A model generated the notes under the pieces. It saw only the letters and a program-made list of their open reading frames with translations. It made no database searches and had not been told where the DNA came from. The position numbers and the translations under genes are program-made. DNA of 38,418 bases from Gammaproteobacteria bacterium (lineage in GTDB: Bacteria; Pseudomonadota; Gammaproteobacteria; Thiohalobacterales; Thiohalobacteraceae), in contig JACRMO010000110.1 of NCBI GenBank assembly GCA_016214925.1, positions 10,182-48,599 of the forward strand, given 5' to 3'. This document shows positions 1 through 13,709 of the stretch, in pieces (the first letter of the stretch is position 1; each line of letters opens with the position of its first letter).

Positions 1-49
1 GTCGTGCATGTCCTTGAACGTCCATTGAATTGCCCTGTATGGCGAGGGC

Positions 50-65
50 TGGCATCAGTCTTGCT
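50..65 (+). promoter_or_regulatory. Candidate sigma-54 (RpoN) -24/-12 promoter for the nirB operon
   Basis: TGGCAT-cagtc-TTGCT at 50-65 matches TGGCAC-N5-TTGCW with the correct spacing. It lies about 310 nt upstream of the nirB ATG, ahead of a structured leader. Confidence 0.45.
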
Positions 66-154
66 CTGGCACTAGACAGAGATAAACAAGCGTGTAAAGT
101 GCCCGTTCCTCCGGGCACGGGTCGATGGACCGGCATGCAGGCAGATTGAATCGG

Positions 155-180
155 CGTTCCGCCCAATGGCGGGCGGGACG
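155..180 (+). promoter_or_regulatory. Leader hairpin 1 with hexaloop AATGGC (ANTAR/NasR-type RNA target candidate)
   Basis: cgttccgccc (155-164) pairs with gggcgggacg (171-180), with one G-U pair. The 6-nt loop AATGGC has A at position 1 and G at position 4. Confidence 0.4.
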
Positions 181-219
181 CGCGAAGATTTTTATAACAC
201 TGAATTTCTTGTAACACAG

Positions 220-241
220 GACACGCCAATGCAGGTGTGTT
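220..241 (+). promoter_or_regulatory. Leader hairpin 2 with hexaloop AATGCA (ANTAR/NasR-type RNA target candidate)
   Basis: acacgcc (221-227) pairs with ggtgtgt (234-240), including a G-U pair. The loop AATGCA (228-233) again has A1/G4. The hairpin ends 13 nt before the terminator stem. Confidence 0.4.
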
Positions 242-253
242 CGCGGACAACGG

Positions 254-299
254 CGTCCATGTCACCGTAGCGGTACCGGTGGCGTGGACGTTTTTTTTT
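254..299 (+). terminator. Intrinsic terminator / attenuator in the nirB leader
   Basis: 14-nt arms cgtccatgtcaccg (254-267) and cggtggcgtggacg (277-290) pair with two G-U pairs. A run of 9 T (291-299) follows, 78 nt upstream of the nirB ATG. Confidence 0.7.
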
Positions 300-376
300 G
301 CAGGTTGTGGATCGGGCGCAGCGCATCGGCAGAGATGCAGTCAGGGCCGGACCATAAGATAGAGGTGGAAGCAGCT

Positions 377-2812
377 ATGAAACAACGACTGGTATTGATC
401 GGCAATGGCATGGCGGGTGTGCGTACCCTGGAAGAATTGCTGAAGCTCGCCCCCGACCGTTACGACATCACCGTGTTCGGCGCCGAACCCTACGGCAATT
501 ACAACCGCATCCTGCTGTCGCCGGTGCTGGCCGGCGAGAAGACCATCGAACAGATCATGCTCAACGACGAGCAATGGTATGTCGACAATGGCATTACGCT
601 GCACGAAGGCAAGCAGGTCACGGCGATCGACCGCACCAAGCGTATCGTGCGCGCCGCCGACGGCACCGAGGAAAAATACGACCGCCTGATCCTGGCGACC
701 GGTTCCATGCCGTTCATCATTCCCATCCCGGGCAAGGATCTTCCCGGTGTGGTGGCCTTCCGCGATATCCAGGATGTCGACCGCATGTTGGCGGCAGCGT
801 CAGGCAAGGGCCACGCGGTGGTGATCGGCGGCGGTCTGCTCGGTCTGGAAGCCGCCAACGGCCTGCTCAAACAAGGCATGCGGGTCAGCGTCGTGCATTT
901 GCTCGATACGCTGATGGAAAAGCAACTCGACAAACCGGCTGCGGGCCTGTTGAAGCGCTCGCTGGAAGAGCGCGGTCTCAATTTTCTGATGGGCGCGCAG
1001 ACCGAGGCGATCCTCGGCAAGGACAAAGTCGAGGCGGTCAGGTTCAAGGATGGTCTGGAAATCCCCGCCGACTTGGTGGTGATGGCCGTCGGTATTCGCC
1101 CCAATGCGGAATTGGCGAAACAGGTCGGTTTGCACTGTGAACGCGGCGTAGTCGTCAACGATACGATGCAGACCTTCGATCCGCGTGTCTACGCCGTCGG
1201 CGAATGCGTGCAGCATCGCGGCGATACCTACGGTCTGGTGGCGCCGTTGTTCGAGCAGGCCAAGGTCTGCGCCAATCACCTGGCCGAACTCGGCTATGCG
1301 CGCTACGAAGGCTCGGTCACGTCGACCAAGCTCAAGGTGACGGGCATCGATCTGTTCTCGGCGGGAGATTTTCAGGGCGACGACTCGACCGAAGAGATGG
1401 TGTTGCAGGACCCAGGTCGCGGCGTGTACAAAAAGGTCGTGGTCAAGGACAACCGCATCCAGGGCGCGGTGATGTATGGCGACACCATCGACGGTTCCTG
1501 GTACTTCCAGTTGATGCGCGACAACACGGATATTTCCGGCTTCCGCGACAATTTGCTGTTCGGCCAAGCGCACCTGGGCGATTCCGGACACGGTGACGAC
1601 AACCGCGTGGCCGCGATGGCCGACAGCGCCGAAATCTGCGGCTGCAACGGCGTGTGCAAGGGCGACATCGTCAAGGCCATCAGCGATAAGAGGCTGTTCA
1701 CGCTTGACGAGGTGCGCGCGCATACCAAGGCTTCCAGTTCCTGCGGTTCCTGCACGGGCTTGGTCGAGGCACTGCTGGCGCATACGCTGGGCGGTGAATA
1801 TTCGCAGACGCCGAGCAAGAAGCCCCTGTGTCCGTGTACCGAACACAATCACGACGAGCTGCGCACGGCGATCCGTGCCGAAGGCCTCAAGTCGGTGCGC
1901 GCGGTCATGGATCATCTGAACTGGAAGACCGAGGATGGCTGCCCGAAATGCCGCCCGGCGCTCAACTACTATCTGCTGTGCCAATGGCCCGGCGAATATA
2001 AGGACGACAACCAGTCGCGCTTTATCAACGAGCGCGTGCACGCCAACATCCAGAAAGACGGCACTTATTCCGTTATTCCGCGCATGTGGGGCGGCGAGAC
2101 CACGCCCAAGGAACTGATGGCGATTGCGCAGATCGCCGAGAAATGGAACGTGCCGACCGTGCATGTCACCGGCGGTCAGCGCATCGATCTCTTGGGCATC
2201 AAGAAGGAAGACCTGCCGGGCATCTGGGGCGATCTGTCTGAGGCCGGGTTCGTTTCCGGCCACGCCTACGGCAAGGCTATTCGCACCGTGAAGACCTGCG
2301 TCGGCAAGACCTGGTGCCGCTTCGGCACCCAGGATTCCACGCAGATGGGTATCGATCTGGAAAAACTCACCTGGGGTTCATGGACGCCGCACAAGTTCAA
2401 GCTCGCGGTGTCCGGTTGTCCGCGCAACTGTGCCGAGGCGACGATCAAGGATTTCGGTGTGGTGTGCGTCGATTCTGGCTATGAATTGCATGTCGGCGGC
2501 AACGGTGGCGTGAAGGTGCGTGCCACCGATTTCCTCTGCCATGTGAAGACCGAAGACGAGGTGAAGGAATACTGCGCCGCCTTCCTGCAACTCTACCGCG
2601 AAGAGGCGCATTACCTGGAACGCACCGCGCCTTGGGTCGAGCGCGTTGGCTTGGCCTATATCAAAGACCGGGTGGTCGAGGATGCGGAGAACCGCGCGGC
2701 GCTCGCAGAACGCTTCGGCCTTTCACAACAGTTCGCGCAGGTCGATCCCTGGAAGGCGCGCGCCGAGGGTCTCGATGCGCACGAATACAGCCCGCTTAAA
2801 CGGGTCGGTTAA
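377..2812 (+). CDS. nirB: Assimilatory NAD(P)H nitrite reductase large subunit
   Basis: N-terminal FAD/NAD Rossmann motif (LVLIGNGMAG, VVIGGGLLGLE). BFD-like 2Fe-2S motif (CGCNGVCKG ... CGSCTG). Siroheme/4Fe-4S sulfite-nitrite reductase domain (TCVGKTWCRFG ... SGCPRNCAEA). ATG 377 is preceded by GAGGTGGA; the ORF-track GTG at 284 lies inside the terminator. Confidence 0.93.
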   Translation: MKQRLVLIGNGMAGVRTLEELLKLAPDRYDITVFGAEPYGNYNRILLSPVLAGEKTIEQIMLNDEQWYVDNGITLHEGKQVTAIDRTKRIVRAADGTEEKYDRLILATGSMPFIIPIPGKDLPGVVAFRDIQDVDRMLAAASGKGHAVVIGGGLLGLEAANGLLKQGMRVSVVHLLDTLMEKQLDKPAAGLLKRSLEERGLNFLMGAQTEAILGKDKVEAVRFKDGLEIPADLVVMAVGIRPNAELAKQVGLHCERGVVVNDTMQTFDPRVYAVGECVQHRGDTYGLVAPLFEQAKVCANHLAELGYARYEGSVTSTKLKVTGIDLFSAGDFQGDDSTEEMVLQDPGRGVYKKVVVKDNRIQGAVMYGDTIDGSWYFQLMRDNTDISGFRDNLLFGQAHLGDSGHGDDNRVAAMADSAEICGCNGVCKGDIVKAISDKRLFTLDEVRAHTKASSSCGSCTGLVEALLAHTLGGEYSQTPSKKPLCPCTEHNHDELRTAIRAEGLKSVRAVMDHLNWKTEDGCPKCRPALNYYLLCQWPGEYKDDNQSRFINERVHANIQKDGTYSVIPRMWGGETTPKELMAIAQIAEKWNVPTVHVTGGQRIDLLGIKKEDLPGIWGDLSEAGFVSGHAYGKAIRTVKTCVGKTWCRFGTQDSTQMGIDLEKLTWGSWTPHKFKLAVSGCPRNCAEATIKDFGVVCVDSGYELHVGGNGGVKVRATDFLCHVKTEDEVKEYCAAFLQLYREEAHYLERTAPWVERVGLAYIKDRVVEDAENRAALAERFGLSQQFAQVDPWKARAEGLDAHEYSPLKRVG

Positions 2813-2824
2813 GGGGAATATTGA

Positions 2825-3202
2825 ATGCAACAGGCAGAAAAAACGATGGTCGAGAACAACTGGATCGACGTGGGCCAAGTGAGCGACATCCCGAAACTGG
2901 GCGCGCGCGTGGTGCGCACGAAAGACGGCGATATCGCGGTGTTCCGCACGGCGGATGACGAGGTGTTCGCGCTGCGCGACCAGTGTCCGCACAAAGGCGG
3001 CCCGCTCTCGCAGGGCATCGTGCACGGCAAGCGCGTTGCCTGCCCACTGCACGACTGGAAAATTCATCTCGACAGCGGTCTGGCGGTCGCGCCCGATGAG
3101 GGCTGTGCCGCGCGATTCCCGGTTAGTGTCGAGGACGGCCGGATACTGTTGTCATTGACGCCGGACGAAGGGTGTCCGAATTCAAACGCACCGAAAGTCT
3201 GA
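2825..3202 (+). CDS. nirD: Nitrite reductase small subunit (Rieske-like fold)
   Basis: NirD-like sequence (DIAVFRT..DEVFALRDQCPHKGGPLSQG...ACPLHDWKI). Starts 12 nt after the nirB stop with AAGGGGA upstream. Confidence 0.88.
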   Translation: MQQAEKTMVENNWIDVGQVSDIPKLGARVVRTKDGDIAVFRTADDEVFALRDQCPHKGGPLSQGIVHGKRVACPLHDWKIHLDSGLAVAPDEGCAARFPVSVEDGRILLSLTPDEGCPNSNAPKV

Positions 3203-3206
3203 GACG

Positions 3207-3548
3207 ATGACCATTCAGATGGGTGATCGCGCGCTCGCCACGGACAACGAAGGCTATCTGCTCGATCCGTCCGAGTGGTCGGAGGAGGTTGCACGGGAAA
3301 TCGCGCGTCGCGAAGGTCTGACGCTGAGCGAGGAACGCTGGACCGTGGTGCGCTTCGTGCGTGAGCACTTCGAATTCCGCCAATCCGTTCCCGAGGCGCG
3401 CTTCGCCCTGAAGGCGATGCGGGAGCATCTGGGTCAGGAGAAGGCGACCCGCAAATATCTCTATCAGTTGTTTCCTTATGGCTATGGCCAGCAGGCGTGC
3501 AAGATCGCCGGCATGCGCAAGCCGCTGAAACTCATGTTGGACGTGTAG
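3207..3548 (+). CDS. DsrC/TusE-family protein, atypical C-terminus (no penultimate Cys)
   Basis: Collinear with TusE/DsrC (TDNEGYL..PSEWSEEVA...LSEERWTVVRFVREHF...YLYQLFPYGYGQQACKIAGMRKP). It ends ...PLKLMLDV where the canonical proteins end ...P(T/V)(G/K)C(V/I). Starts 4 nt after the nirD stop. Confidence 0.8.
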   Translation: MTIQMGDRALATDNEGYLLDPSEWSEEVAREIARREGLTLSEERWTVVRFVREHFEFRQSVPEARFALKAMREHLGQEKATRKYLYQLFPYGYGQQACKIAGMRKPLKLMLDV

Positions 3549-3559
3549 AGAGACCGCAC

Positions 3560-5611
3560 ATGCTCTTCGGACGCGACAAAAAGAACCCCATCAAACTCGT
3601 CGACAAGGGCGCGGTGGAGTGGAAGTACACCACTTGCGGATATTGTTCGACCGGGTGTTCCATCGAGGTTGGGTTGGACAAGGACGGCCGTGCGGTGTCC
3701 TCGCGCGGCGTGGGCGATGCCGACGTCAACCGCGGCAAGCTGTGCATCAAGGGTATTCTGGAGCACGAGTTGTTCGAGTCCGCCGGACGCGGTCGTGTGC
3801 CATTGTTGCGCGAGCAGATCCACGAACCGTTTCGGCAGGCGGGTTGGAACGAGGCCTTGGACAAGACCTCGAACGAAATAAAGCGCATTCAGGAGCGGTA
3901 CGGCAGGGACGCCTTCGCCATTGTCTCCACCGGTCAGATCATGACCGAGGAGTTCTACACCCTGGGTAAGCTCGCACGCGGTCTGATCGGTACCAACAAC
4001 TACGATGGCAACACCACCTTGTGCATGTCCTCGGCGGTGTCCGGCTACAAACGTTCCTTTGGCTCCGATGGCCCGCCCGGTTGTTATGAGGATTTCGAGC
4101 ACACCGACTGTCTGATCGCTTTCGGTTCCAATCTGCCCGAGCAGCATCCCATCATCTACTGGCGGATGCGCGAGGCGCGCGAGCAACGCAAATACCCGCT
4201 CATCGTGGTGGATCCACGCGTGACCATGCTGGCGCAATTCGCCGATATGCACCTGCCGATCCGCCCCGGCACCGATGTGGTGTTGTTGAACGCGCTGGCG
4301 CATGTGATTCTCAAGGAAGGCCTGCACAAGCCGGACTACATCGGCGCGCATACCGAGGGCTTCGAGGATTTCAAGGCGCTCGTCGAGCAGTACGATCCGG
4401 TCACGGCGTCGAGGATCTGCGGCATCGACGAAGACAGCATCCGCACTGTCGCGCGCCTGTATGCCAAGGCGGGTTCGGCCATGAGCATCTGGACCATGGG
4501 CATCAATCAGAGCACGCACGGCTCCGACGGCGTGGTCGCGATCAACAATCTCAATCTCATCACCGGCAACATCGGCAAGCCCGGCGGCACCAGCCTGTCG
4601 ATTACCGGGCAATGCAATGCCATGGGCACGCGCGAATGGTCGTCCTGCTCAGGCCTGCCGGGTTACCGCGCGCTGGAGAAAGAGAAAGACCGCCAGGACA
4701 TCGCCAAGTTCTGGGGTGTCGATCCCGAGTTCTTCCCCAAGCAGCGCGGGCTGTTAATGACCGACATTCTGCCGGCCATCGTCGAGTGCAATGAATACAG
4801 TCATGTCTATCTGCCGGCCGCGCTGTGGGCGGAGAAGGAAGGCTGTTTCACCAACACCGAGCGGCGCGTGAATCTGATTCGCAACGTCATACCACCCCAT
4901 GGCGAATCGAAGCCGGACTTCTGGATCTTCAACGAAGTGGCCAAGCGTTTCGATCCCGAGCGCAAGGTAAAATTTCCCGAGACCACTGAGGGGGCCTTCG
5001 AGGAAATGAAGCAGTTGTCCAAGGGCAATATGCTGGATATCTCCGGCATGACCTACGCCAAGATCGAACAGAGTCGCGGTCTGCAATGGCCCTGCCGCGA
5101 CGGCGAAGAGAAGGGCGCGCAACGCCTGTACAGCGATGGCGTGTTTCAGTATGCCAGCGGCAAGGCCAAGTTGATTCCGCTGCCGTTCATCGACAACAAC
5201 GAACGCCCGGATACGGATTATCCCTTCTGGCTGAACAGCGGTCGCGTGGTCGAGCACTTCCATACCCGCACCCGCACCGGCAAGATCGGCAATCAGAACA
5301 AGTTCAGCCCGACGCCGTATATGGAGATCAACCCGGACGCAGCGGCGGAGTTGGAGATTGCGCATGGCAGTTACGCGCGCCTGGTGTCACGCCGCGGTGA
5401 TGCCGTTGTGTTGGTGCAATGCACCCAGCGTGTGCCGCGCGACATGGTGTTCGTGCCATTCCATTACCACGAGTGCGTCAACCGCGTCAGCTTAGGATTG
5501 CTCGATCCGCATTCTCGCCAACCGGCGTTCAAGCAATGCGCCATTCGCATCGAACCGATTGCGGATCAGGAAGCGGCGGCGGCGCTGAATCTGGCGGCGC
5601 GGGCGTATTGA
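3560..5611 (+). CDS. NarB/NasA-family molybdopterin (bis-MGD) oxidoreductase catalytic subunit; cytoplasmic, atypical
   Basis: N-terminal 4Fe-4S motif CGYCSTGCSIEV...GKLCIKG. Mo-ligand region GNTTLCMSSAVSGYKRSFG. C-terminal beta-barrel domain (YPFWLNSGRVVEHFHTRTRTG). No twin-arginine signal. ATG 3560 follows GAGAGA. A conserved block of about 43 aa is missing relative to the nasA paralog in this window. Confidence 0.85.
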   Translation: MLFGRDKKNPIKLVDKGAVEWKYTTCGYCSTGCSIEVGLDKDGRAVSSRGVGDADVNRGKLCIKGILEHELFESAGRGRVPLLREQIHEPFRQAGWNEALDKTSNEIKRIQERYGRDAFAIVSTGQIMTEEFYTLGKLARGLIGTNNYDGNTTLCMSSAVSGYKRSFGSDGPPGCYEDFEHTDCLIAFGSNLPEQHPIIYWRMREAREQRKYPLIVVDPRVTMLAQFADMHLPIRPGTDVVLLNALAHVILKEGLHKPDYIGAHTEGFEDFKALVEQYDPVTASRICGIDEDSIRTVARLYAKAGSAMSIWTMGINQSTHGSDGVVAINNLNLITGNIGKPGGTSLSITGQCNAMGTREWSSCSGLPGYRALEKEKDRQDIAKFWGVDPEFFPKQRGLLMTDILPAIVECNEYSHVYLPAALWAEKEGCFTNTERRVNLIRNVIPPHGESKPDFWIFNEVAKRFDPERKVKFPETTEGAFEEMKQLSKGNMLDISGMTYAKIEQSRGLQWPCRDGEEKGAQRLYSDGVFQYASGKAKLIPLPFIDNNERPDTDYPFWLNSGRVVEHFHTRTRTGKIGNQNKFSPTPYMEINPDAAAELEIAHGSYARLVSRRGDAVVLVQCTQRVPRDMVFVPFHYHECVNRVSLGLLDPHSRQPAFKQCAIRIEPIADQEAAAALNLAARAY

Positions 5612-5624
5612 TGAATTATGAAAT

Positions 5625-5714
5625 GTAGGATGGGTGAAGCGTAGCGCAACCCATCGATAACACGCTTCAACGCACATGATGGGTTACGGCATAAATCGCC
5701 TCCACCCATCCTAC
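5625..5714. repeat. Nested palindromic REP/MITE-like intergenic element
   Basis: 12-bp terminal inverted repeats GTAGGATGGGTG (5625-5636) and CACCCATCCTAC (5703-5714). Inner inverted repeats GATGGGT/ACCCATC and TGAAGCG/CGCTTCA. GATGGGT occurs three times across both orientations. Confidence 0.6.
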
Positions 5715-5746
5715 GTTATGGTGATTCAAAGAGGTTTCTCCAAGAC

Positions 5747-7630
5747 ATGTACAAGACTCGCCACAACGAACCTGCCTACGGCTTCATCCCCGACGTACCG
5801 ACGTCGGAGAAGAATTGCTACGGGAAACCGATTCGTCTGATCGACGACAACCCGTCGCTGGCGGGTCAGAGCCTGAACATCAACGGCGATCCCGGCATCG
5901 GCCTCAATCCCAACCGCTACAAGCAGCACGGCTTCTATTTCAACGCCGATAACTGCATCGCCTGCCATGCCTGCGAGGCGGCCTGTGCGGAGAAGAACGA
6001 TACGCCTGCGCATCTGGCATTCCGTTCGGTGGGTTATCTGGAAGGCGGCAGTTATCCGGCCGTGCAGCGGCTGAATATCTCCATGGCCTGCAATCACTGC
6101 GACGACCCGGTGTGTCTCAAAGGCTGTCCGACGCGCGCCTATACCAAGTTCGCCGAATACGGCGCGGTGCTGCAGGATCCGGATATCTGTTTCGGCTGCG
6201 GCTATTGCACCTGGGTGTGTCCATACAACGCGCCGCAGCTCGATCCGGTCGCGGGGCATGTCTCCAAGTGCAATATGTGTGTCGATCGGCTCGAAGTCGG
6301 TCTGAAACCCGCTTGTGCCTCGGCCTGCCTGGGCGGCGCGTTGGATTTCGGCATTATCGAGACCGCACCGGAAGGCCGCGATCAGCTGGAAACGCAGATC
6401 CCCGGCTTCCCCGATCCGTCCATCACCCACCCCAACATCCGCTTTCAACAGAAGCGCAGCCTGCCGCGCGAACTGACGCGTACCGATACCACGCCGGTGA
6501 AATACCTGCGCGACGATCAGAATGCCAAGCCCGATCCGGGCGTGAAGGGCGGACAAACGCGCTATCGCAGCGCCTCAGCAGTCAATCTGGATAAACCCGC
6601 CGAGTGGAATCTCGCCAAGCTACGTTCGCGCGAAGACCCGCTGGTGATTTTCACGCTCATCACCCAGGCAGTGGTGGGCGCGTTTCTGCTGCTGTTCCTG
6701 GGTCCGTTAGTCGGGCTGAGCGAACTGTCGGTCGCCGCACATCCGATCGCTTATCCGGTGGCATTGTTCGGCTTGATCGCCATTCAGACCTTCGCGTTGG
6801 TGATCTCGACTCTGCATCTGGGTCGGCCGCATCGTTTCTACCGCGCTTTCAATAATCTCAGGTATTCACCGGTGAGCCGCGAGGTCGCCGCGGTGGCGGT
6901 GTTCTACAACCTGCTCGGTGCCTATGCCGTGTTGAGCGGTGTACCGCAAATTTCCGATGGGCTGTTCGGCTGGTTGCCGCAAGGGTTGGTGAACGGCGCA
7001 ACCCAGGCGAGCGGTTGGCTGGCGGTGATCGCGGGACCGGCGGCGCTGTATTTCATGCACCGTATCTACCGCATCCAGGCGCGGCCGTTCTGGAACCACT
7101 GGCAGGTGCTGACCAGTTTCTACGGCAGCATGCTGACGCTGGGGCCACTCGCTGTCGCGCTGATGTTCGTGCCGGTGTTGGCGGCGCAGGGCATCGAGTA
7201 CGCGGGTTTGTTGCAGCTGTGCGCGTTACCGATGCTGGGTGGTTTGTTGCTGGAGGGTTTTGGACTCTACCGTCATGCGGCCTATCTCAATGCGACGGGC
7301 GGTGAGGCGCAGGCCGCGCAGCATGAGCAGCTGACGACCTTTGGCAAGACCTACCGCGCGCGTAATGGCTTGCTGGCGGTCAGCGCCTCCGCGTTGACCG
7401 TGCTGATCGGGGCCGCACCGGTGGGTGCGGTCGGATTAGGACTGTGGGTCACGGTCGGATTGTCGGTGCTCACCGCCGCGATGATCGGCCGCGCGCTGTT
7501 CTATGTACTGGTCATTCCCACCACCCTGCCCGGCGCGTTCTTCTGGAAGAACCCCGGTTTTCAGAGCCACGCCCGCGATATGGGACTGGCACAGATGCCA
7601 CAGGTCGGCGTGCAGGTGACGACGCATTGA
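5747..7630 (+). CDS. Fusion of a DmsB-type 4x[4Fe-4S] ferredoxin subunit and a DmsC-like polytopic membrane anchor
   Basis: Four Cys clusters (CIACHACEAAC; CNHCDDPVCLKGCP; CFGCGYCTWVCP; CNMCVDRL...CASAC). After a linker of about 90 aa come multiple hydrophobic helices, including LHLGRPHRFYRAFNNLRYSPVSRE (DmsC-type motif). No signal peptide. Confidence 0.8.
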   Translation: MYKTRHNEPAYGFIPDVPTSEKNCYGKPIRLIDDNPSLAGQSLNINGDPGIGLNPNRYKQHGFYFNADNCIACHACEAACAEKNDTPAHLAFRSVGYLEGGSYPAVQRLNISMACNHCDDPVCLKGCPTRAYTKFAEYGAVLQDPDICFGCGYCTWVCPYNAPQLDPVAGHVSKCNMCVDRLEVGLKPACASACLGGALDFGIIETAPEGRDQLETQIPGFPDPSITHPNIRFQQKRSLPRELTRTDTTPVKYLRDDQNAKPDPGVKGGQTRYRSASAVNLDKPAEWNLAKLRSREDPLVIFTLITQAVVGAFLLLFLGPLVGLSELSVAAHPIAYPVALFGLIAIQTFALVISTLHLGRPHRFYRAFNNLRYSPVSREVAAVAVFYNLLGAYAVLSGVPQISDGLFGWLPQGLVNGATQASGWLAVIAGPAALYFMHRIYRIQARPFWNHWQVLTSFYGSMLTLGPLAVALMFVPVLAAQGIEYAGLLQLCALPMLGGLLLEGFGLYRHAAYLNATGGEAQAAQHEQLTTFGKTYRARNGLLAVSASALTVLIGAAPVGAVGLGLWVTVGLSVLTAAMIGRALFYVLVIPTTLPGAFFWKNPGFQSHARDMGLAQMPQVGVQVTTH

Positions 7631-7644
7631 GAAATGTGTAGGCC

Positions 7645-7971
7645 ATGCGCCGTCTGCAGGACATTGAAAACGATCTCGAACGCGCGGTCTTTCTCGCCAA
7701 CTACAACGCGCCGCGTCAGCGCCTGTTGCGGGTCGCGGCGGCGGGCATGATCGTTGCCAAGCATGGCCTGCGCGGCTTGCTGTATGTCTGGCCGTTGACC
7801 CTCCTGCTGTTCATCGAACTTCCGGATACCTGGCGCTGGCTGCGCATGGTGCTTATCCTCCTGGCCATGGGCGCCTGGTTTCGTTTCATCTACGGTTCGG
7901 TGCGCGATGATTACAGGCGTTTCGTGCAGGGTAGCCTGCTGGAACCGGCACGGCTGAAGCGGGTACTCTAG
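7645..7971 (+). CDS. Small hypothetical membrane protein (2 predicted TM segments)
   Basis: ATG start 14 nt after the upstream stop; ends 5 nt before the nasA ATG. Hydrophobic segments LLYVWPLTLLLFI and MVLILLAMGAWFRFIY. No family recognised. Confidence 0.45.
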   Translation: MRRLQDIENDLERAVFLANYNAPRQRLLRVAAAGMIVAKHGLRGLLYVWPLTLLLFIELPDTWRWLRMVLILLAMGAWFRFIYGSVRDDYRRFVQGSLLEPARLKRVL

Positions 7972-7976
7972 ACGGC

Positions 7977-10631
7977 ATGTCTAAAGCAGTACAAACCACG
8001 TGTCCCTATTGCGGTGTCGGTTGCGGTGTGTCGGCCGCGGTCGACGCCGAGGGACGCGTAACCGTCAAAGGCGATCCCGATCATCCCGCCAATTTCGGCC
8101 GGCTCTGTTCCAAGGGCGCCGCGCTGGGCGAGACCGTCGATCTGGACGGCCGGCTCCTGTATCCCGAGGTGAACGGCGCTCAAACCGACTGGGACACCGC
8201 GCTGGGCCATGTCGCTGAACGTTTCCAAGCGGTCATCCGTGAACATGGGCCGGAGGCGGTGGCTTTCTATGTCTCCGGGCAATTGCTGACGGAGGATTAT
8301 TACGTTGCCAACAAACTCATGAAGGGGTTCATCGGCAGCGCCAACATCGACACCAATTCCCGCTTGTGTATGTCGTCCGCGGTGGCCGGCTACAAGCGCG
8401 CTTTCGGCGCGGATACCGTGCCGTGCAACTATGAAGACCTGGAACGCGCCAAATTGATCGTGCTGGCGGGTTCCAACGCTGCTTGGTGTCATCCCGTTCT
8501 GTATCAGCGCATCGTCAAGGCGCGCAAGGAACATTCCGATCTGCGCGTCATTGTCATCGACCCGCGCAAAACCAACACCTGCGATGGCGCCGATCTGCAT
8601 CTGGCCATCGCTCCGGGCACCGATGCGACGCTGTTCAACGGTCTGCTGGTCTATCTCGATGCGCAGGGCGAAGCGAATAGCCTGTTTCTGAACAGCGCCG
8701 TCGACGGTGTGGAGGGCGCCCTAGCCGCCGCGCGCGCGGATGCGCCGGATCTCGACAGCGTTGCGCGGCGCTGTGGCCTGAGTGTAGAAGACATCGCGGA
8801 GTTCTATCGGCTGTTCGCCCGCACCGAACGCGTGGTGACGGTGTACTCGCAGGGCATCAATCAGTTTTCGATGGGTACGGACAAGGTCAACAGCATCATC
8901 AATTGCCACCTGTATACCGGTCGCATCGGCCGTGCCGGCATGGGACCGTTCTCCATGACCGGTCAGCCGAATGCGATGGGCGGCCGCGAGGTCGGTGGTT
9001 TGGCGAATCAATTAGCCGCGCATATGGACTTGGACAATCCCGAACACACCGACCGCGTGCAGCGGTTCTGGAATGCGCCGGTGATCGCGCAGCGCGCCGG
9101 GTTGAAGGCCGTCGATATGTTCGAGGCCGTGGCAGCGGGCAAGATCAAGGCGCTGTGGGTGATGGCCACCAATCCCGCCGTCAGTCTGCCCGACAGTGAC
9201 CGGGTGCGTGACGCATTGGCGCAGTGCGAATTCCTGGTGGTCTCCGATTGCGTGCGACATACCGACACCACGACCTATGCGCATGTACTGCTGCCCGCGT
9301 CGGCCTGGGGCGAGAAAGACGGCACGGTGACCAATTCGGAACGGCGCATCTTGCGTCAACGCGCTTTCCTGCCGAGCGCGGGCGAGGCGCAGCCGGATTG
9401 GTGGATCGTCAGCGAAGTCGCCAAACGCATGGGCTTCACGGCGGCCTTCGACTATGCGTCGGCGGCGCAGGTGTTCCGCGAACACGCGGCACTCTCCGCC
9501 TTCGAGAACGCGGGACAACGCGATTTCGACATCGGTGCTTTGGCGCGACTGGACGATGCGCAGTATGCCGAGCTGCAACCGCTGCAATGGCCGCGACCCA
9601 CGGTCGGTACGCCCGGCACACGCTTGTTCGCGGACGGGCGCTTCTTCACGCCCAATGGCCGCGCGCGCATGATCGCCATCGCGGGCAAGGCTCCGGCGAG
9701 TGCGACCGACGCGGATTATCCGCTCGTTCTCAACACGGGCCGCGTACGCGATCACTGGCATACGCTGACGCGCACCGGCAAGTCGCCGCGCCTGTCCGCG
9801 CACAGCATCGAGCCGTATGCCGAGATACATCCCGACGATGCGGCGCGTTATGAATTGCGCGACGGTGCCTTGCTGGAAGTGACCAGCCGCTGGGGGCGGG
9901 CGGTGACGCGGATTCGCGTCAGCGGTGCGCAGCGCCCCGGCAGCGTGTTCATGCCGATTCACTGGAACAACCAGTTCTCCAGTCTGGCGTCGGTGGACAG
10001 TCTGATCGGTCCGCATACCGATCCGCTTTCCGGCCAACCCGAGTTCAAGTTCACACCGGTGCGCGTGCGACCCTATGTGGCGAGTTGGTACGGCTTTCTG
10101 CTTTCCCGCCGGAGCTTGGCATTGCGGCATCCCGATTACTGGGCGTGCGCCAAAGGCAACGGCTTCTGGCGCTATGAAATCGCCGGCACGGAACTGGCGG
10201 CCGATTGGGCGCGCTGTGCGCGGGAATTGTTGTGTGCCGCCGACGAACGCGTGGAGTGGACGGAATACTTCGATCAGGCCGCCCACCGTTATCGCGGCGC
10301 GCGGTTGGTATCCGGACGGCTGGAGAGCTGTGTGTTCATCGGTCAAGGTAACGAATTGCCGCCACGCGACTGGCTGGCGGCTTTGTTCGACCTGGAGGGA
10401 CTCGAACCCGCGCAACGCGCCAGCCTGCTCAGCGGCAAGCCGCCGCGGGGCGAAACGGATCGGGGCCGTACCGTCTGCGCCTGTTTCAATGTCGGCCGCA
10501 ACACCCTGGTCGAGGCCATCCGACAGCAGGGTCTGACCTCGGTCGAGGCCATCGGAGCCCAGCTCCAGGCGGGCACGAATTGCGGCTCCTGTGTGCCGGA
10601 GCTGCGGGCGTTATTGACCGAGGTCAACTGA
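7977..10631 (+). CDS. nasA: Assimilatory nitrate reductase catalytic subunit (long form with C-terminal BFD-like 2Fe-2S domain)
   Basis: CPYCGVGCGV...GRLCSKG 4Fe-4S motif. TNSRLCMSSAVAGYKRAFG Mo-Cys region. KALWVMATNPAVSLPD...EFLVVSD MGD-binding strands. C-terminal CACFNVG...GTNCGSCVPEL motif. Confidence 0.92.
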   Translation: MSKAVQTTCPYCGVGCGVSAAVDAEGRVTVKGDPDHPANFGRLCSKGAALGETVDLDGRLLYPEVNGAQTDWDTALGHVAERFQAVIREHGPEAVAFYVSGQLLTEDYYVANKLMKGFIGSANIDTNSRLCMSSAVAGYKRAFGADTVPCNYEDLERAKLIVLAGSNAAWCHPVLYQRIVKARKEHSDLRVIVIDPRKTNTCDGADLHLAIAPGTDATLFNGLLVYLDAQGEANSLFLNSAVDGVEGALAAARADAPDLDSVARRCGLSVEDIAEFYRLFARTERVVTVYSQGINQFSMGTDKVNSIINCHLYTGRIGRAGMGPFSMTGQPNAMGGREVGGLANQLAAHMDLDNPEHTDRVQRFWNAPVIAQRAGLKAVDMFEAVAAGKIKALWVMATNPAVSLPDSDRVRDALAQCEFLVVSDCVRHTDTTTYAHVLLPASAWGEKDGTVTNSERRILRQRAFLPSAGEAQPDWWIVSEVAKRMGFTAAFDYASAAQVFREHAALSAFENAGQRDFDIGALARLDDAQYAELQPLQWPRPTVGTPGTRLFADGRFFTPNGRARMIAIAGKAPASATDADYPLVLNTGRVRDHWHTLTRTGKSPRLSAHSIEPYAEIHPDDAARYELRDGALLEVTSRWGRAVTRIRVSGAQRPGSVFMPIHWNNQFSSLASVDSLIGPHTDPLSGQPEFKFTPVRVRPYVASWYGFLLSRRSLALRHPDYWACAKGNGFWRYEIAGTELAADWARCARELLCAADERVEWTEYFDQAAHRYRGARLVSGRLESCVFIGQGNELPPRDWLAALFDLEGLEPAQRASLLSGKPPRGETDRGRTVCACFNVGRNTLVEAIRQQGLTSVEAIGAQLQAGTNCGSCVPELRALLTEVN

Positions 10632-10722
10632 CGTCCTGGTGACCTTAAAACCTCAAGAATCAGTCTCCGCTGTCGCCAACTTGGGACAGAGATGTGTCCT
10701 GTCACCGGGCAAAGGAGACGCC

Positions 10723-12283
10723 ATGCTGAGCAATATCACCCTCTTGAAAAAGGCGCAGATCCTCGCGCTGTTGCTGGTTGTCTGCGTGACGGCGGTGGTG
10801 ACGGTAACGCTGCACGCCACCCGGACCATCGAGGGAATTGCGCCTCCATATCGTACAGATCCAGCAATTTTTGCAGGACATCAGCGCGACACGCGGGCAG
10901 GATGGCCTGAACGACGGTTTTGCCAATGCCGAAAAACATTATCTCGCAGCCAAGCAGAGCCTGATCGATCTTGCGGCCCTGGATGCGGGGAACGATGCCT
11001 TGTATACCGACCTGGGCGTGCGTCTGGAAGCCTATTATGCCAAGGGCAAACGCATGGCCAAGGCCTATGTCGATCTCGGACCGCCTGCTGGCAATGCCAA
11101 GATGGGCGAATTCGATGCCGCAGCCAGTGCAATCACTGAACGGGTCGATGAATTGTGCGCGAGCGCCGTCGACAACAGTTCCGCGATGTTGGCGCAGACC
11201 TCCGCATCGGCAGGCATGGCCAGTCGCAATATCACGCTGCTGGCGTTGTTTGGTGGTGGTATCATGTTAGGCGGCGTGTGGTTGCTGATCAGCGCACTTC
11301 GCCCGTTGCGCGCTCTGACCGACGCGACACTGCGCATCGCGGATAATGATCTTACCGGACAGATTCCGCAGACGGGTCACCAGGACGAGGTCGGCTTGCT
11401 GAGTGCGGCTATCGTCGCCCTACAAGGCAAACTCACACATCGGATCCAGGATATCGCCAACGTGAGCCACCAGATCAATGTGGCGGTCGAAACCATGAAC
11501 GCGATTGTCGAGCACACCAGTCTGGGTGTGCAGCAACAGCACAGCGAAACCGAGCAGGTCGCGACTGCCATGAATGAAATGACCGCCACGGTGCATGAAG
11601 TCGCGCGCAATACGGCGGCGGCAGCCGCGGCGAGTCAGGCGGAAGAAGAAGTCGGTAATGGCAGCCGGGAAGTCAAACAGACCATTGCGTTGATCGGCAA
11701 ATTGGCCGACGACGTGCGTAAGGGTGCGGACGTGATCGGTCGTCTGGAAACCGACAGCAACAACATCGGCGCGGTGCTCGATGTGATTCGCGGCATCGCC
11801 GAGCAGACCAACCTGTTGGCGCTGAATGCGGCTATCGAGGCGGCGCGCGCCGGTGATCAAGGGCGCGGTTTCGCGGTGGTCGCCGACGAGGTGCGCACGC
11901 TGGCGCAGCGTACCCAGGCGTCGACTCAGGAAATCCAACAGATGATCGAGAAACTCCAGCAGGGCGCGGAGGAAGCTGTGCGCGTCATGCATGCAGGGCG
12001 CAGTCAGGCCGAGGCCAGCGTGACGCAGGCGAGTCAGGCAGGCCGTTCACTGGACAGCATCCGTGCCGCGGTATCGACCATCCACGATATGTCGACGCAG
12101 ATCGCCAGCGCCTCCGAGGAACAGGGCGCGGTAGCCGAAGAGATCAATCGCAACATCGTCAATATCAGTCAGGTGGTTGTGCAGACCGCCGACGATGCCG
12201 CGCAGACGTCCAGTGCGGGCGAAAAGCTGGGTGGTCTGGCGGAGCAGCTGCAAACGGTGGTCGCGCGCTTCAAGCTGCCGTAA
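10723..12283 (+). pseudogene. Methyl-accepting chemotaxis protein, split by a +1 frameshift near 10833-10835
   Basis: ATG 10723 has a strong SD (AAAGGAGA) and encodes TM1 (MLSNITLLKKAQILALLLVVCVTAVVTV) in frame 1. The rest of the protein is in frame 2, which opens only at 10808: ligand-binding region with [14 protein letters not shown]2, HAMP, and the signalling domain with [32 protein letters not shown]. Removing one G from the GGG run at 10833-10835 gives a continuous ...[17 protein letters not shown]... Confidence 0.7.
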
Positions 12284-12307
12284 CTCGATCGGGCGGTGTG
12301 CGCGGGT

Positions 12308-13000
12308 TCAGTCCTCGCGCGCGCCGCTATCCAGAAACGCGCGCAGCTCCGGGGTATGCAGCCGACAGCGCGCGTGATCGCCATCGGCGAAATGCAGATC
12401 GCCGATCAGATTCAAGCGCTGCAAGCTGAGCAGCGCATTGGTGATATCCAGGGTTTGCAATCCCGCCTGTTCGCTCAAACTCGCCAAGTTGAGTTTCAGC
12501 GTTTGTCCGTTGCCGCCGTCGTTGGCCTGCTGCGCCAACAGGCGCATCCCCACATACAGCATATGCTGGCATTGCAGGGCGTCGACTAGACGCTGATTGA
12601 TGTCGTTGAGCTTCACCGACAGCGAACGCAGCATGCGCACGCTCAGCGCCGGGAAATGCTGGAGCGCCGTGGCGAAATCCGCGTTGGCCAATTCCAGCAG
12701 GGTGAGCGGGCCGTCGCTGAGAATGCTGGCCGAACGCTTCAAATCCATGAACACACCCATCTCGCCGATGATCGAGCCCTTCTCGGCGATGGCAATGACA
12801 TTGCTGTTGCCGGTGGCGTCGTTTTTGATGATGCGGGCACGGCCGGTCAACACAATATACACCGCATCGCAGGGCGCGCCTTCGCGGACCACCACCTCGC
12901 CGGTTTTGTATTGATGGCGGCGGCCATAGTCGTTGAGAAATCGGGTGGCTTCTTCGCTGAGGCGGGTGGGCAGACTTTCCAGAATGGGATTGTTCGTCAT
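12308..13000 (-). CDS. Crp/Fnr-family regulator (cNMP-binding domain + C-terminal wHTH-like region)
   Basis: cNMP-binding beta-barrel with GSIIGEMGVFMDLKRSASILS (GE...R.A cassette). C-terminal LKLNLASLSEQAGLQTLDITNALLSLQRLNLI resembles a Crp-type HTH. AAGGA SD upstream. Confidence 0.7.
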   Translation of the reverse strand: MTNNPILESLPTRLSEEATRFLNDYGRRHQYKTGEVVVREGAPCDAVYIVLTGRARIIKNDATGNSNVIAIAEKGSIIGEMGVFMDLKRSASILSDGPLTLLELANADFATALQHFPALSVRMLRSLSVKLNDINQRLVDALQCQHMLYVGMRLLAQQANDGGNGQTLKLNLASLSEQAGLQTLDITNALLSLQRLNLIGDLHFADGDHARCRLHTPELRAFLDSGARED

Positions 13001-13012
13001 GTCCGTCCTTTG

Positions 13013-13561: not shown

Positions 13562-13709
13562 CGCTTCGCGCTACCATACACAGGGGATACGCTGAAGTTC
13601 AACTGCTCGGCCCGGTTCACCGGATTGGCGAAGCTCCGAATATTCCATGTGCTGTGATTCCCGCGTAAGCCGGAATGACGCATTGATCAGACCTTCTTTA
13701 GGAATACGC

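What the first reader, a model, noticed from the sequence alone, without database searches (positions are those of the whole stretch)
3207..7971. Uncharacterised membrane-anchored, cytoplasm-facing molybdoenzyme module inserted inside a nirBD-nasA assimilation operon
Four tightly spaced genes lie between nirD and nasA, with gaps of 4, 11, 135 (filled by a repeat element), 14 and 5 nt. They are a DsrC/TusE-like protein, a second NarB/NasA-type Mo-bisMGD subunit with no Tat signal, a DmsB-DmsC fusion and a small membrane protein.

Assimilatory nitrate reductases are normally soluble and take electrons from NADH, ferredoxin or flavodoxin. Dms/Psr/Ttr-type ABC enzymes normally face the periplasm. 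Here a soluble-type catalytic subunit appears wired to the quinone pool from the cytoplasmic side, a topology known for SoeABC sulfite dehydrogenase, with a sulfur-relay-family protein attached. Possible roles are quinol-driven nitrate reduction or oxidation of a different oxyanion. The substrate cannot be read from the sequence.
Basis: partly seen in the sequence, partly recalled or inferred. Interest (0 to 1): 0.75.

Follow-up and report, generated by a model that had tools for sequence, protein, structure and literature searches.

The report
Membrane-anchored quinol-linked nitrate reductase, damaged copy
Between the nitrite-reductase genes and an ordinary nitrate-reductase gene lies a second, membrane-tethered nitrate reductase that probably takes its electrons from the quinone pool; the type is widespread in sulfur-, iron- and methane-oxidising bacteria and I found no study of it, but the copy here has lost 43 essential amino acids.

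Summary
The four genes are at the stated coordinates with the stated gaps.

**What the genes are**
- A DsrC-like protein.
- A Nas/Nap-type Mo-bisMGD subunit ("MoA") with no Tat signal.
- A DmsB-DmsC fusion with 16 Cys and 8 TM helices.
- A 2-TM protein.

**Conservation.** The module is not an insertion into nirBD-nasA. Across 81 related loci, MoA lies directly upstream of the fusion in 71/74 and nirB upstream in 38/41. nasA is present in only 10/51. So nirBD-MoA-BC is the conserved core, next to nitrate transporters, and nasA is the optional extra.

**Function.** MoA has nitrate-reductase signatures, not formate-dehydrogenase ones. The anchor's charge bias is inverted relative to E. coli DmsC. 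This puts the FeS domain and the conserved quinol site (H357/E379) in the cytoplasm. The best reading is a cytoplasm-facing, non-electrogenic quinol:nitrate oxidoreductase that feeds NirBD.

**Prior knowledge.** I found no paper on it. One GenBank record already names the pair "nitrate reductase (quinol-dependent)".

The window's MoA alone among 120 family members lacks a 43-aa, 96%-conserved beta-alpha-beta block. It is probably inactive here, or the contig is misassembled.

**DsrC-like protein.** It lacks the relay cysteine and is only loosely linked to the module.

The parts
50..205 (+). Candidate operon control region: a sigma-54-like -24/-12 element (50-64), then a leader with two hexaloop hairpins, the second followed by a U-run.
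   Evidence: TGGCATcagtcTTGC, one mismatch, not significant on its own; fold -56.2 kcal/mol, z -3.97. Inference only.
284..2812 (+). nirB, NADH-nitrite reductase large subunit. The true start is probably about 30 codons downstream of 284.
   Evidence: TIGR02374 960 bits against a cut-off of 578; the match begins at residue 36.
2825..3202 (+). nirD, Rieske-type small subunit.
   Evidence: TIGR02378 103 bits against a cut-off of 75.
3207..3548 (+). DsrC-like protein. CysA is retained (QQACKIAG), CysB is absent, and the tail is extended (KPLKLMLDV).
   Evidence: PF04358 120.7 bits. Best PDB match is A. vinosum DsrC 1YX3. The tail is conserved in 118/119 homologs, with no Cys in the last 5 residues.
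3560..5611 (+). MoA: Nas/Nap-type Mo-bisMGD catalytic subunit, 683 aa, no Tat signal, N-terminal 4Fe-4S motif. It carries a 43-codon in-frame deletion.
4778..4783 (+). Deletion junction (between nt 4780 and 4781, codons I407|V408). Missing block: ETGQIKGLWLIATNPMTSMPNTARIRKTLERLEFLVVQDAYAD.
   Evidence: All 119 best relatives are 726-729 aa. Block conservation is 0.96 against 0.88 overall. Relatives have the near-repeats GCCATCGAGACC and GCCGATGTCGAGACC at the two ends. The block is also present in the in-window NasA and in PDB FdhF and NapA.
5612..5746 (+). Intergenic palindromic element (arms about 5625-5640 and 5699-5714).
   Evidence: -50.9 kcal/mol, z -5.85.
5747..7630 (+). DmsB-DmsC fusion, 627 aa. 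It has a conserved N-extension (aa 1-59), a four-cluster FeS domain (aa 60-205, nt 5924-6361, 16 Cys), a linker, and an 8-TM DmsC domain (aa 296-590, nt 6632-7516) with the quinol-site residues H357 and E379.
7645..7971 (+). Small 2-TM hairpin protein, N-in/C-in, with no known family. It is a frequent companion of the module.
   Evidence: Present in 37/71 loci with at least 0.8 kb downstream.
7977..10631 (+). nasA, a conventional assimilatory nitrate reductase with a C-terminal BFD-type 2Fe-2S domain. It appears intact.

Best explanation
**What it is.** MoA, the DmsB-DmsC fusion and probably the small 2-TM protein form a cytoplasm-facing, membrane-anchored quinol:nitrate oxidoreductase. It is the nitrate-reducing partner of NirBD in many lithoautotrophic and methanotrophic Proteobacteria.

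**Proposed electron path.**
1. Quinol is oxidised at a DmsC-type site (H357/E379) on the cytoplasmic face of the 8-TM domain.
2. Electrons pass through the four [4Fe-4S] clusters of the fused B domain.
3. They reach the N-terminal [4Fe-4S] cluster of MoA and then its Mo-bisMGD centre.
4. Nitrate is reduced to nitrite in the cytoplasm.
5. NirBD reduces the nitrite to ammonium with NADH.

**Consequences.** The quinol site and the active site are on the same side and there is no haem to carry electrons across the membrane. The step should therefore not generate proton-motive force. It would spare one of the four NAD(P)H equivalents per nitrate, which matters in organisms that make NADH by reverse electron flow.

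**In this window.** The operon also carries a conventional nasA. The MoA copy has lost a 43-residue beta-alpha-beta block of a dinucleotide-binding domain, so this particular module is probably inactive. The loss is either a very recent lesion or an assembly fault, and NasA would do the work.

**Shown:** gene content, conservation, active-site signatures, cluster count, membrane orientation by charge bias, and the deletion.

**Inferred:** physical A-BC complex formation, quinol as the donor, the physiological role, and loss of function.
For: **Synteny**
- MoA is directly upstream of the fusion in 71/74 loci and nirB is upstream in 38/41.
- nasA is present in only 10/51 loci with at least 4 kb downstream, and in 2/22 with 8 kb on both sides.
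- MFS or ABC transporter genes, taken here to be nitrate transporters, and a PknD-like kinase flank the cluster in Thiogranum longum, Sulfuriflexus mobilis and L093.

**Catalytic subunit**
- The signatures are LCMSSAV (Cys-Met), SITGQ (Thr where FDH has Arg333) and an Arg aligned with Arg354 of D. desulfuricans NapA.
- NCBIfam scores against NasC, NasA and NapA equal those of the in-window NasA.
- It forms its own clade: 69-83% identity internally and 31-39% to NasA, NasC, NapA and FdhF.
- There is no C-terminal BFD domain, so an external electron donor is needed.

**Fusion protein**
- It has 16 Cys in four ferredoxin-type motifs and is 39% identical to E. coli DmsB.
- TM1-4 align to DmsC, with H65 and E87 conserved as the invariant H357 and E379.

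**Orientation**
- No Tat motif is present.
- Mean K+R on the FeS-side loops is 4.9, 5.1, 3.0, 4.9 and 2.5. On the opposite loops it is 0.2, 0.5, 0.1 and 0.0. The bias is reversed in E. coli DmsC.

**Abundance**
- More than 3,500 homologs were found, and at least 565 hits among GTDB species representatives.

**Independent annotation**
- Thiogranum longum proteins TCK17641.1 and TCK17642.1 are named 'nitrate reductase (quinol-dependent)' catalytic and transmembrane subunits.

**Deletion**
-. In the AF2 model of the T. longum homolog the missing block is strand 414-418, helix 430-436 and strand 441-445 (low-confidence model).
Against: - No biochemical, genetic or expression data exist for any member; nine literature searches found none.
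- Complex formation between MoA and the fusion rests on adjacency only.
- nasA co-occurs with the module in about a fifth of loci, including cultured T. longum. Two nitrate reductases in one operon need an explanation, which may be different donors or conditions.
- Outside the deletion, the window's MoA deviates at only 1 of 388 near-invariant columns. There is thus no sign of long-term decay, and the deletion could be an assembly or consensus artefact. It could not be confirmed in other data.
- Topology comes from a crude hydropathy scan plus the positive-inside rule, not from a dedicated predictor or an experiment.
- The NJ tree lacks cyanobacterial NarB and SoeA references.
Confidence: 0.6

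Rival explanations
1. The module works in this organism as well. Either the 43-codon gap is an assembly or consensus artefact, or a minority allele, so the real gene is full length; or the truncated protein still folds and binds its cofactor.
For: The rest of MoA is pristine, with 1 deviation at 388 near-invariant columns against a family mean of 0.8. The reading frame is intact, and the fusion, small-protein and DsrC-like genes are full length. Relatives have near-repeats at the two ends of the block, which could mislead an assembler as easily as a polymerase.
Against: The missing block is the most conserved stretch of the family (0.96). It contains the GxWxxxTNP and VVQD strands present in every homolog examined, including NasA, NapA and FdhF. 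None of the 119 relatives lacks it. Assemblers rarely produce clean in-frame 129-nt deletions in unique sequence.
Confidence: 0.25
2. The chemistry is the same but the physiology differs. The quinol:nitrate reductase and NirBD together act as a cytoplasmic electron sink, giving nitrate ammonification or redox balancing under oxygen limitation. This would keep sulfide:quinone or other quinone-reducing dehydrogenases running, rather than serving assimilation.
For: NirBD serves both roles in other bacteria (general knowledge; noted for Beggiatoaceae in PMC4914600). A dedicated assimilatory nasA co-occurs in the same operon in about 20% of loci, which hints at a division of labour. The hosts are gradient-dwelling sulfur and iron oxidisers.
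Against: The clusters carry typical assimilation features: MFS or ABC transporter genes taken to be nitrate transporters, and a sigma-54-like promoter with an antiterminator-like leader in the window. In most loci no other Nas gene lies nearby. The predicted reaction conserves no energy.
Confidence: 0.2
3. The module oxidises or reduces a different oxyanion, as SoeABC does with sulfite. Candidates are sulfite, formate, arsenite or chlorate, with the DsrC-like protein linking it to sulfur metabolism.
For: The hosts are mostly sulfur oxidisers. A DsrC-family gene is sometimes adjacent. The cytoplasm-facing three-module layout resembles SoeABC (general knowledge; PMC6504805).
Against: The active-site signatures are Nap/Nas-type and exclude the FDH His/Arg pair. 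The module is locked to nirBD and transporter genes taken to be for nitrate, not to sulfur genes. The family also occurs in methanotrophs and iron oxidisers. The anchor is DmsC-type, not the NrfD/PsrC type of SoeC. The DsrC-like proteins lack CysB, and one subtype has no Cys at all.
Confidence: 0.08
4. MoA is an ordinary soluble ferredoxin- or flavodoxin-dependent NarB, and the DmsBC fusion next to it belongs to an unrelated enzyme.
For: JGI pipelines label many members 'ferredoxin-nitrate reductase' or 'assimilatory nitrate reductase catalytic subunit'.
Against: MoA is adjacent to the fusion in 71/74 loci across two proteobacterial classes, often with gaps of 15-50 nt and with no other molybdoenzyme gene beside the fusion. 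MoA is a separate clade from NasA/NasC. An FeS-anchor fusion has no function without a catalytic partner.
Confidence: 0.04

Closest known systems
Assimilatory nitrate reductases (NasA/NasC of Klebsiella, Paracoccus and Pseudomonas; NarB of cyanobacteria)
   Same: Both are cytoplasmic and lack a Tat signal. Both have an N-terminal 4Fe-4S cluster, a Mo-bisMGD centre with a Cys-Met ligand motif, a genetic link to nirBD and nitrate transporters, and similar NCBIfam scores.
   Different: Identity is only 33-39% and MoA forms a separate clade. It has no BFD or flavodoxin-type donor domain. Its constant partner is a membrane-anchored four-cluster protein rather than ferredoxin, NasG or an NADH reductase.
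NarGHI respiratory nitrate reductase
   Same: Both are quinol:nitrate oxidoreductases with a cytoplasmic active site, a four-cluster electron-transfer module and a membrane anchor.
   Different: The subunits are not homologous at family level: NarG 41 bits against a cut-off of 1084, NarH 52 against 524. There is no di-haem NarI. The quinol site is predicted on the cytoplasmic side, so no redox loop or proton-motive force is expected. Here the B and C parts are one polypeptide.
E. coli DmsABC (complex iron-sulfur molybdoenzyme family)
   Same: The B domain is 39% identical to DmsB and has all 16 Cys. The anchor matches PF04976, has 8 TM helices and keeps the quinol-site residues H65 and E87.
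   Different: The B and C parts are fused. There is no Tat export. Membrane orientation is inverted, with the charge bias reversed. The catalytic subunit is Nas/Nap-type, not DmsA-type (118 bits against a cut-off of 778).
SoeABC sulfite:quinone oxidoreductase
   Same: Both are cytoplasm-facing A-B-C molybdoenzymes of sulfur oxidisers that exchange electrons with the quinone pool.
   Different: Electron flow is in the opposite direction. The SoeC anchor is NrfD/PsrC-type whereas this one is DmsC-type. The catalytic subunit here has nitrate-reductase signatures. No SoeA sequence was compared directly.
DsrC/TusE sulfur-relay proteins
   Same: The fold and family match (PF04358). The best solved match is A. 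vinosum DsrC, and CysA is conserved.
   Different: The penultimate CysB, which is needed for persulfide or trisulfide chemistry, is replaced. The tail is extended to KP[LR]KLMLD[VILM], which is conserved in 118/119 homologs. A second cluster-associated subtype has no Cys.

Membership tests
Nap/Nas/Fdh clade of Mo-bisMGD enzymes, nitrate-reductase type | N-terminal CxxCxxxC...C 4Fe-4S motif together with the Molybdopterin and Molydop_binding domains | tested here: met
   PF04879, PF00384 and PF01568 all score above their cut-offs. The motif reads TTCGYCSTGC...GKLC.
Nap/Nas/Fdh clade of Mo-bisMGD enzymes, nitrate-reductase type | Mo-ligand Cys followed by Met (not Sec/Cys-His), Thr instead of the FDH Arg333, and the equivalent of NapA Arg354 present | tested here: met
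   Alignment to D. desulfuricans NapA (2JIO) and to FdhF (7QV7): LCMSSAV, SITGQ, GTREW. Residue roles are from general knowledge.
Nap/Nas/Fdh clade of Mo-bisMGD enzymes, nitrate-reductase type | Complete MGD-binding alpha/beta domains | tested here: not met
   This applies to the window copy only. Its 43-aa beta-alpha-beta block is deleted. All 119 relatives are intact.
Curated NasC / haloarchaeal NasA / NapA equivalogs (NCBIfam) | Whole-protein score above the curated cut-off | tested here: not met
   NasC 459 against 1100; NasA_Halo 407 against 1000; NapA 386 against 904; Fdh-alpha 514 against 666. The in-window NasA also falls below these cut-offs.
Proteobacterial NasA/NasC clade | Groups with NasA/NasC in a phylogeny | tested here: not met
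   In the NJ tree the NasA/NasC/Nas clade excludes MoA with 100% bootstrap support. MoA is a separate long-stemmed clade. The method is crude and no NarB reference was included.
DmsABC-type complex iron-sulfur molybdoenzyme | Four-cluster protein with 4 x 4 Cys | tested here: met
   16 Cys in four motifs, invariant in alignment A1. 39% identity to DmsB. TIGR02951 scores 155.6, below its cut-off of 214.
DmsABC-type complex iron-sulfur molybdoenzyme | DmsC-type 8-TM anchor with the quinol-site His and Glu | tested here: met
   PF04976 scores 72.1 against a cut-off of 22.3. H357 and E379 align with DmsC H65 and E87 and are invariant.
DmsABC-type complex iron-sulfur molybdoenzyme | Tat-exported catalytic dimer facing the periplasm, with separate B and C polypeptides | tested here: not met
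   There is no RR leader on MoA or the fusion. The B and C parts are fused. The charge bias places the B side in the cytoplasm.
NarGHI | NarG and NarH homologs plus a di-haem NarI | tested here: not met
   TIGR01580 scores 40.9 against 1084 and TIGR01660 scores 52.2 against 524. No NarI-like gene is present.
SoeABC | NrfD/PsrC-type anchor and a SoeA-clade catalytic subunit | tested here: inconclusive
   The anchor matches DmsC and gives no NrfD hit. No SoeA reference was available for a direct comparison.
DsrC/TusE sulfur relay | Penultimate C-terminal Cys (CysB) on a flexible arm | tested here: not met
   The tail is KPLKLMLDV. None of 119 homologs has a Cys in the last 5 residues.
Quinol:nitrate oxidoreductase activity (functional class) | Quinol-dependent nitrate reduction by the isolated complex | not testable with these tools
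   This needs enzyme assays.

The most novel reading that the evidence does not exclude
A third route of electron supply to assimilatory nitrate reduction exists and is common in nature. In it, a Nas-type catalytic subunit is wired directly to the quinone pool from the cytoplasmic side through a fused, inverted DmsBC module. The route is used by hundreds of species of sulfur-, iron- and methane-oxidising Proteobacteria in place of, or alongside, NAD(P)H- or ferredoxin-dependent Nas. It may involve a dedicated 2-TM subunit and a CysB-less DsrC-like partner.
Probability: 0.5. Interest if true: 0.75.

Novelty: new variant of a known kind. Interest (0 to 1): 0.6.

Why it matters
Genome and metagenome surveys score the catalytic gene simply as 'nasA' or 'narB' and ignore its membrane partner.

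If the enzyme draws on quinol, several things change:
- The energy budget of nitrate assimilation in chemolithoautotrophs, which pay proton-motive force for every NADH.
- The redox coupling between sulfide, iron or methane oxidation and nitrogen uptake.
- The functional annotation of thousands of genes.

It would also be a natural example of a complex iron-sulfur molybdoenzyme re-oriented to the cytoplasm by fusion of its B and C subunits. That makes it useful for understanding how these modular enzymes evolve.

Cultured hosts exist (Thiogranum longum, Sulfuriflexus mobilis), so the idea can be tested directly.

For this window specifically, the lesson is that the module is probably a freshly broken copy backed up by nasA.

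Tried and rejected
**Literature.** Nine full-text searches combined nasA, nirBD, DmsB, DmsC, quinol-dependent, membrane anchor, DsrC-like and the host genera. I also read passages of five papers. None describes the membrane partner; they call the catalytic gene nasA.

**Plasmid collection.** There is no DNA match. The best protein match is 39% identical and annotated 'nitrate reductase'.

**Same-species contigs to check the deletion.** Exact-protein look-ups found nothing. The nearest contig lacks MoA. Two metagenome scans, for the intergenic element and for the deletion junction, found nothing.

**Structure.** The AF2 model of the full-length homolog came out at low confidence (pLDDT 61.7). 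I used it only for the secondary structure of the deleted block and did not submit it to fold search.

**Other searches.**
- Rfam: no hit in 1-12000.
- Promoter and terminator scan: nothing internal to the module above chance.
- Pfam at E<=5 for the small protein and for the N-extension of the fusion: nothing.

**Ideas considered and dropped.**
- Formate dehydrogenase, because of the active-site signatures.
- Nitrite oxidation to quinone, which is thermodynamically implausible.
- A sulfur-relay role for the DsrC-like protein, which has no CysB and is loosely linked.


Full report
**1. Observation**

The + strand of the window carries these genes:
- nirB, 284-2812
- nirD, 2825-3202
- a 113-aa DsrC-family gene, 3207-3548
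- a Mo-bisMGD gene whose real start is the ATG at 3560 (to 5611)
- a 627-aa gene, 5747-7630
- a 108-aa gene, 7645-7971
- nasA, 7977-10631

The gaps are 4, 11, 135, 14 and 5 nt, exactly as reported.

Pfam and NCBIfam confirm every assignment. The 627-aa protein combines a DmsB-like ferredoxin domain (Fer4_11; TIGR02951 155.6 bits) with a DmsC anchor (PF04976, 72.1 bits against a cut-off of 22.3). The 108-aa protein matches no family even at E<=5 and has two hydrophobic helices. Neither the Mo subunit (MLFGRDKKNPIKLVDKG...) nor the fusion (MYKTRHNEPAYGF...) has a twin-arginine leader.

The 135-nt gap holds a strong palindrome (-50.9 kcal/mol, z -5.85). It occurs once in the window and in none of 82 related loci. 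The scan found no promoter-like site inside the module, and the terminator-like matches over 1-11000 (13 found, about 9 expected in shuffles) are no more than chance.

**2.

Alignment to FdhF (7QV7) and to D. desulfuricans NapA (2JIO) breaks at query residue about 408 and skips roughly 40 residues of the solved proteins. The same gap appears against the in-window NasA and against twelve relatives translated from related loci.

All 119 best database relatives are 726-729 aa. Only the window's protein is 683 aa. The missing block is ETGQIKGLWLIATNPMTSMPNTARIRKTLERLEFLVVQDAYAD. It is the best-conserved part of the family, with mean column conservation 0.96 against 0.88 overall. In a low-confidence AF2 model of the Thiogranum homolog it forms strand 414-418, helix 430-436 and strand 441-445. 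This is one beta-alpha-beta unit of a dinucleotide-binding domain. From general knowledge of this enzyme family, it holds the 'TNP' and 'VVxD' motifs that contact an MGD guanosine.

At the DNA level, relatives carry the near-repeats GCCATCGAGACC and GCCGATGTCGAGACC at the two ends of the block. The window reads GCCATCGTCGAG. That is what slipped-strand deletion would leave.

Outside the gap, the window's protein deviates at only 1 of 388 near-invariant columns, against a family mean of 0.8. The lesion is therefore either very recent or an assembly artefact. I could not find another contig of the same species to decide between these.

**3. Comparative context**

The fusion protein has more than 3,500 homologs. 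The top 120 are full length and 63-89% identical.

The best 80 come from these groups:
- Gammaproteobacteria: Thiohalobacter, Acidiferrobacterales, Chromatiales, Ectothiorhodospiraceae, Thioalkalispiraceae, Thiotrichaceae, Methylocaldum and other Methylococcaceae.
- Betaproteobacteria: Thiobacillaceae, Gallionellaceae, Nitrosomonadales, Burkholderiales.

In these loci plus the Thiogranum longum locus, the counts are:

| Feature | Loci with feature / loci with enough sequence |
|---|---|
| MoA immediately upstream of the fusion | 71/74 |
| nirB upstream | 38/41 |
| Small protein downstream | 37/71 |
| DsrC-like gene | 16/71 |
| NasA-type gene, at least 4 kb downstream available | 10/51 |
| NasA-type gene, 8 kb available on both sides | 2/22 |

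Three individual loci are informative:
- Thiogranum longum, a cultured organism, has the same seven genes as the window, plus a divergent MFS transporter gene (taken here to be for nitrate) and a PknD-like kinase.
- Sulfuriflexus mobilis has an ABC-transporter component, an MFS transporter, nirBD, MoA, BC and a DsrC-like gene, and no nasA.
- L093 has the window's gene order (nirD, dsrC-like, MoA, BC) without nasA.

The module is therefore the conserved partner of nirBD, and nasA is the accessory. The phrase 'inserted inside a nirBD-nasA operon' has the history backwards.

**4. The catalytic subunit**

MoA has these features:
- The FS0 cysteine motif.
- The Mo-ligand Cys followed by Met (LCMSSAV, as in Nap and Nas), not Sec/Cys-His.
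- Thr in SITGQ, where formate dehydrogenases have Arg333.
- An Arg aligned with NapA Arg354 (residue roles from general knowledge).

Its scores against the NasC, haloarchaeal NasA and NapA models match those of the bona fide NasA next door. Neither protein reaches the equivalog cut-offs.

It is 33% identical to the in-window NasA. It is at most 39% identical to any plasmid-borne homolog, and the best of those are annotated as nitrate reductases.

A quick NJ tree places the family as a tight, long-stemmed clade (69-83% identity internally). It lies outside the NasA/NasC clade, which has 100% bootstrap support, and beside NapA. FdhF and DmsA lie further out. So MoA does not sit 'firmly inside ordinary NarB', although no cyanobacterial NarB was available to include.

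MoA has no C-terminal BFD domain. It therefore needs an external electron donor.

**5. The fusion and its orientation**

The B domain has 16 Cys in four ferredoxin motifs, all invariant. It is 39% identical to E. coli DmsB.

TM1-4 align with E. coli DmsC. H65 and E87, which from general knowledge are needed for menaquinol oxidation in DmsC, correspond to the invariant H357 and E379 in the motif HLGRPHRFYRAFNNLRYSPVSRE.

Hydropathy analysis plus homology gives eight helices. Mean K+R counts over 12 family members are:

| Side | Segments | Mean K+R | Sum |
|---|---|---|---|
| Same side as the FeS domain | pre-TM1, L2-3, L4-5, L6-7, C-tail | 4.9, 5.1, 3.0, 4.9, 2.5 | 20.4 |
| Opposite side | L1-2, L3-4, L5-6, L7-8 | 0.2, 0.5, 0.1, 0.0 | 0.8 |

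In E. coli DmsC the bias runs the other way, 8 against 4, with the quinol-site loop on the periplasmic side. There is also no Tat signal, and a folded FeS domain is fused N-terminally. Together these place the FeS domain, the quinol site and the docking face in the cytoplasm.

DmsB-DmsC fusions as such are not unique to this family. The 50%-cluster library holds many fused proteins of 440-650 aa at 30-50% identity.

**6. Accessory genes**

The DsrC-like protein best matches A. vinosum DsrC (1YX3, E 4.5e-26). It keeps CysA but ends KPLKLMLDV, where DsrC ends in three further residues that the alignment did not show (GCV from memory of DsrC sequences). Of 119 homologs, 118 keep CysA and none has a Cys in the last five residues. 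A second cluster-associated subtype ends KPKGEH and has no Cys at all. Two of three relatives whose contexts I looked up sit alone, near radical-SAM genes in both cases and lipoate-related genes in one, not in nitrate clusters. A persulfide-relay role is therefore unsupported. The conserved tail suggests a binding function, which remains unknown.

The small protein is an N-in/C-in hairpin with conserved motifs (ELERAVF...KHxLRG...WP; RDDY). It follows the fusion in about half of the loci. It may be a fourth subunit or an assembly factor.

**7. Mechanism**

The best-supported model runs as follows:
1. Quinol is oxidised at the cytoplasmic DmsC-type site.
2. Electrons pass through four [4Fe-4S] clusters.
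3. They reach FS0 of MoA and then the Mo-bisMGD centre.
4. Nitrate is reduced to nitrite in the cytoplasm.
5. NirBD reduces the nitrite with NADH.

With both sites on one side and no haem, the step should be electroneutral. This differs from NarGHI.

The pay-off would be the replacement of one NAD(P)H or ferredoxin equivalent per nitrate by quinol. That fits the host range, which consists of organisms that reduce quinone or cytochrome c directly and make NADH by reverse electron flow. This last point is inference.

Where nasA co-occurs, the two enzymes may serve different redox states. Alternatively the module may act as an electron sink together with NirBD.

**8. What is known**

No paper found in nine searches links a Nas-type subunit to a DmsBC-type anchor. 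Genome papers on Thiomargarita, Beggiatoaceae and Gallionellaceae simply list 'nasA' with nirBD.

NCBIfam has no equivalog for either subunit. PGAP names them 'molybdopterin oxidoreductase family protein' or 'nitrate reductase', and 'DmsC/YnfH family molybdoenzyme membrane anchor subunit'.

However, the submitter's annotation of Thiogranum longum calls TCK17641.1 and TCK17642.1 'nitrate reductase (quinol-dependent) catalytic subunit' and '...transmembrane subunit'. So the functional idea already exists as a database prediction.

I therefore rate this a new variant of a known kind. It is predicted by annotators, but I found no experimental or published description.

**9. Verdict**

The architecture, orientation, conservation and lack of characterisation are right. 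The insertion history and the sulfur-relay link are wrong, the substrate can largely be read as nitrate, and the deletion was missed.
- At family level the system is interesting and testable in cultured hosts.
- In this window the catalytic gene is most likely a freshly disabled copy, or a misassembly, sitting next to an intact nasA.

Noticed in passing
window 50-205: A sigma-54-like -24/-12 element (TGGCATcagtcTTGC, 50-64) lies about 220 nt upstream of nirB. It is followed by a leader that folds into two hexaloop hairpins (loops UUCCUC and AAUGGC), the second followed by UUUUUAU. This looks like an NtrC-dependent promoter plus a NasT/NasR-type antitermination leader.
   Followed up: partly
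window 5612-5746: A 135-nt intergenic palindrome (-50.9 kcal/mol, z -5.85) lies between MoA and the fusion gene. It occurs once in the window and is absent from 82 related loci and from JGI metagenomes (exact 29-mer). It may be a REP/MITE-like insertion or an mRNA-processing or stabilising hairpin.
   Followed up: partly
window 3207-3548; L091, L092, L093: This is a distinct DsrC subfamily. CysA is kept, CysB is lost, and the tail KP[LR]KLMLD[VILM] is conserved in 118/119 homologs. Members also occur alone, near radical-SAM genes (L091, L092) and lipoate-related genes (L091), so they are not tied to nitrate clusters. Function unknown.
   Followed up: partly
window 3560-3610 (MoA N-terminus): The first 11-17 residues (MLFGRxKKNPIK) are nearly invariant across the family, although they precede the first cluster cysteine. 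They may form a chaperone- or partner-binding peptide, analogous to the NarG N-tail.
   Followed up: no
window 5747-5923 (fusion aa 1-59): This conserved N-terminal extension (SLNING...NPNRYKQHGF) is absent from E. coli DmsB and matches no Pfam family. It is a candidate docking element for MoA or NirBD.
   Followed up: no
window 284-390: The mechanical nirB ORF (842 aa, GTG at 284) is about 30 codons longer than its relatives (812 aa), and the TIGR02374 match starts at residue 36. The true start is probably downstream.
   Followed up: no
window 10838-26526: Signalling and nitrogen-related genes lie downstream of nasA. They include an MCP (10838-12283), a response-regulator-GGDEF-EAL protein (15918-18404), an Rrf2-family regulator (19276-19740, - strand), an HDOD/HD protein (20013-21443, - strand), a class-1 FBPase (22694-23812) and an Amt ammonium transporter (25330-26526).
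   Followed up: no
L030 7795-9922; L032 7727-9866: In two betaproteobacterial MAG loci the MoA match is split into two overlapping or adjacent tblastn pieces. This may reflect frameshifts or sequencing errors in those copies.
   Followed up: no
representative library (P0246-P0390): Many other DmsB-DmsC fusion proteins of 440-650 aa at 30-50% identity exist outside this family. Their catalytic partners are unknown and could not be looked up.
   Followed up: no
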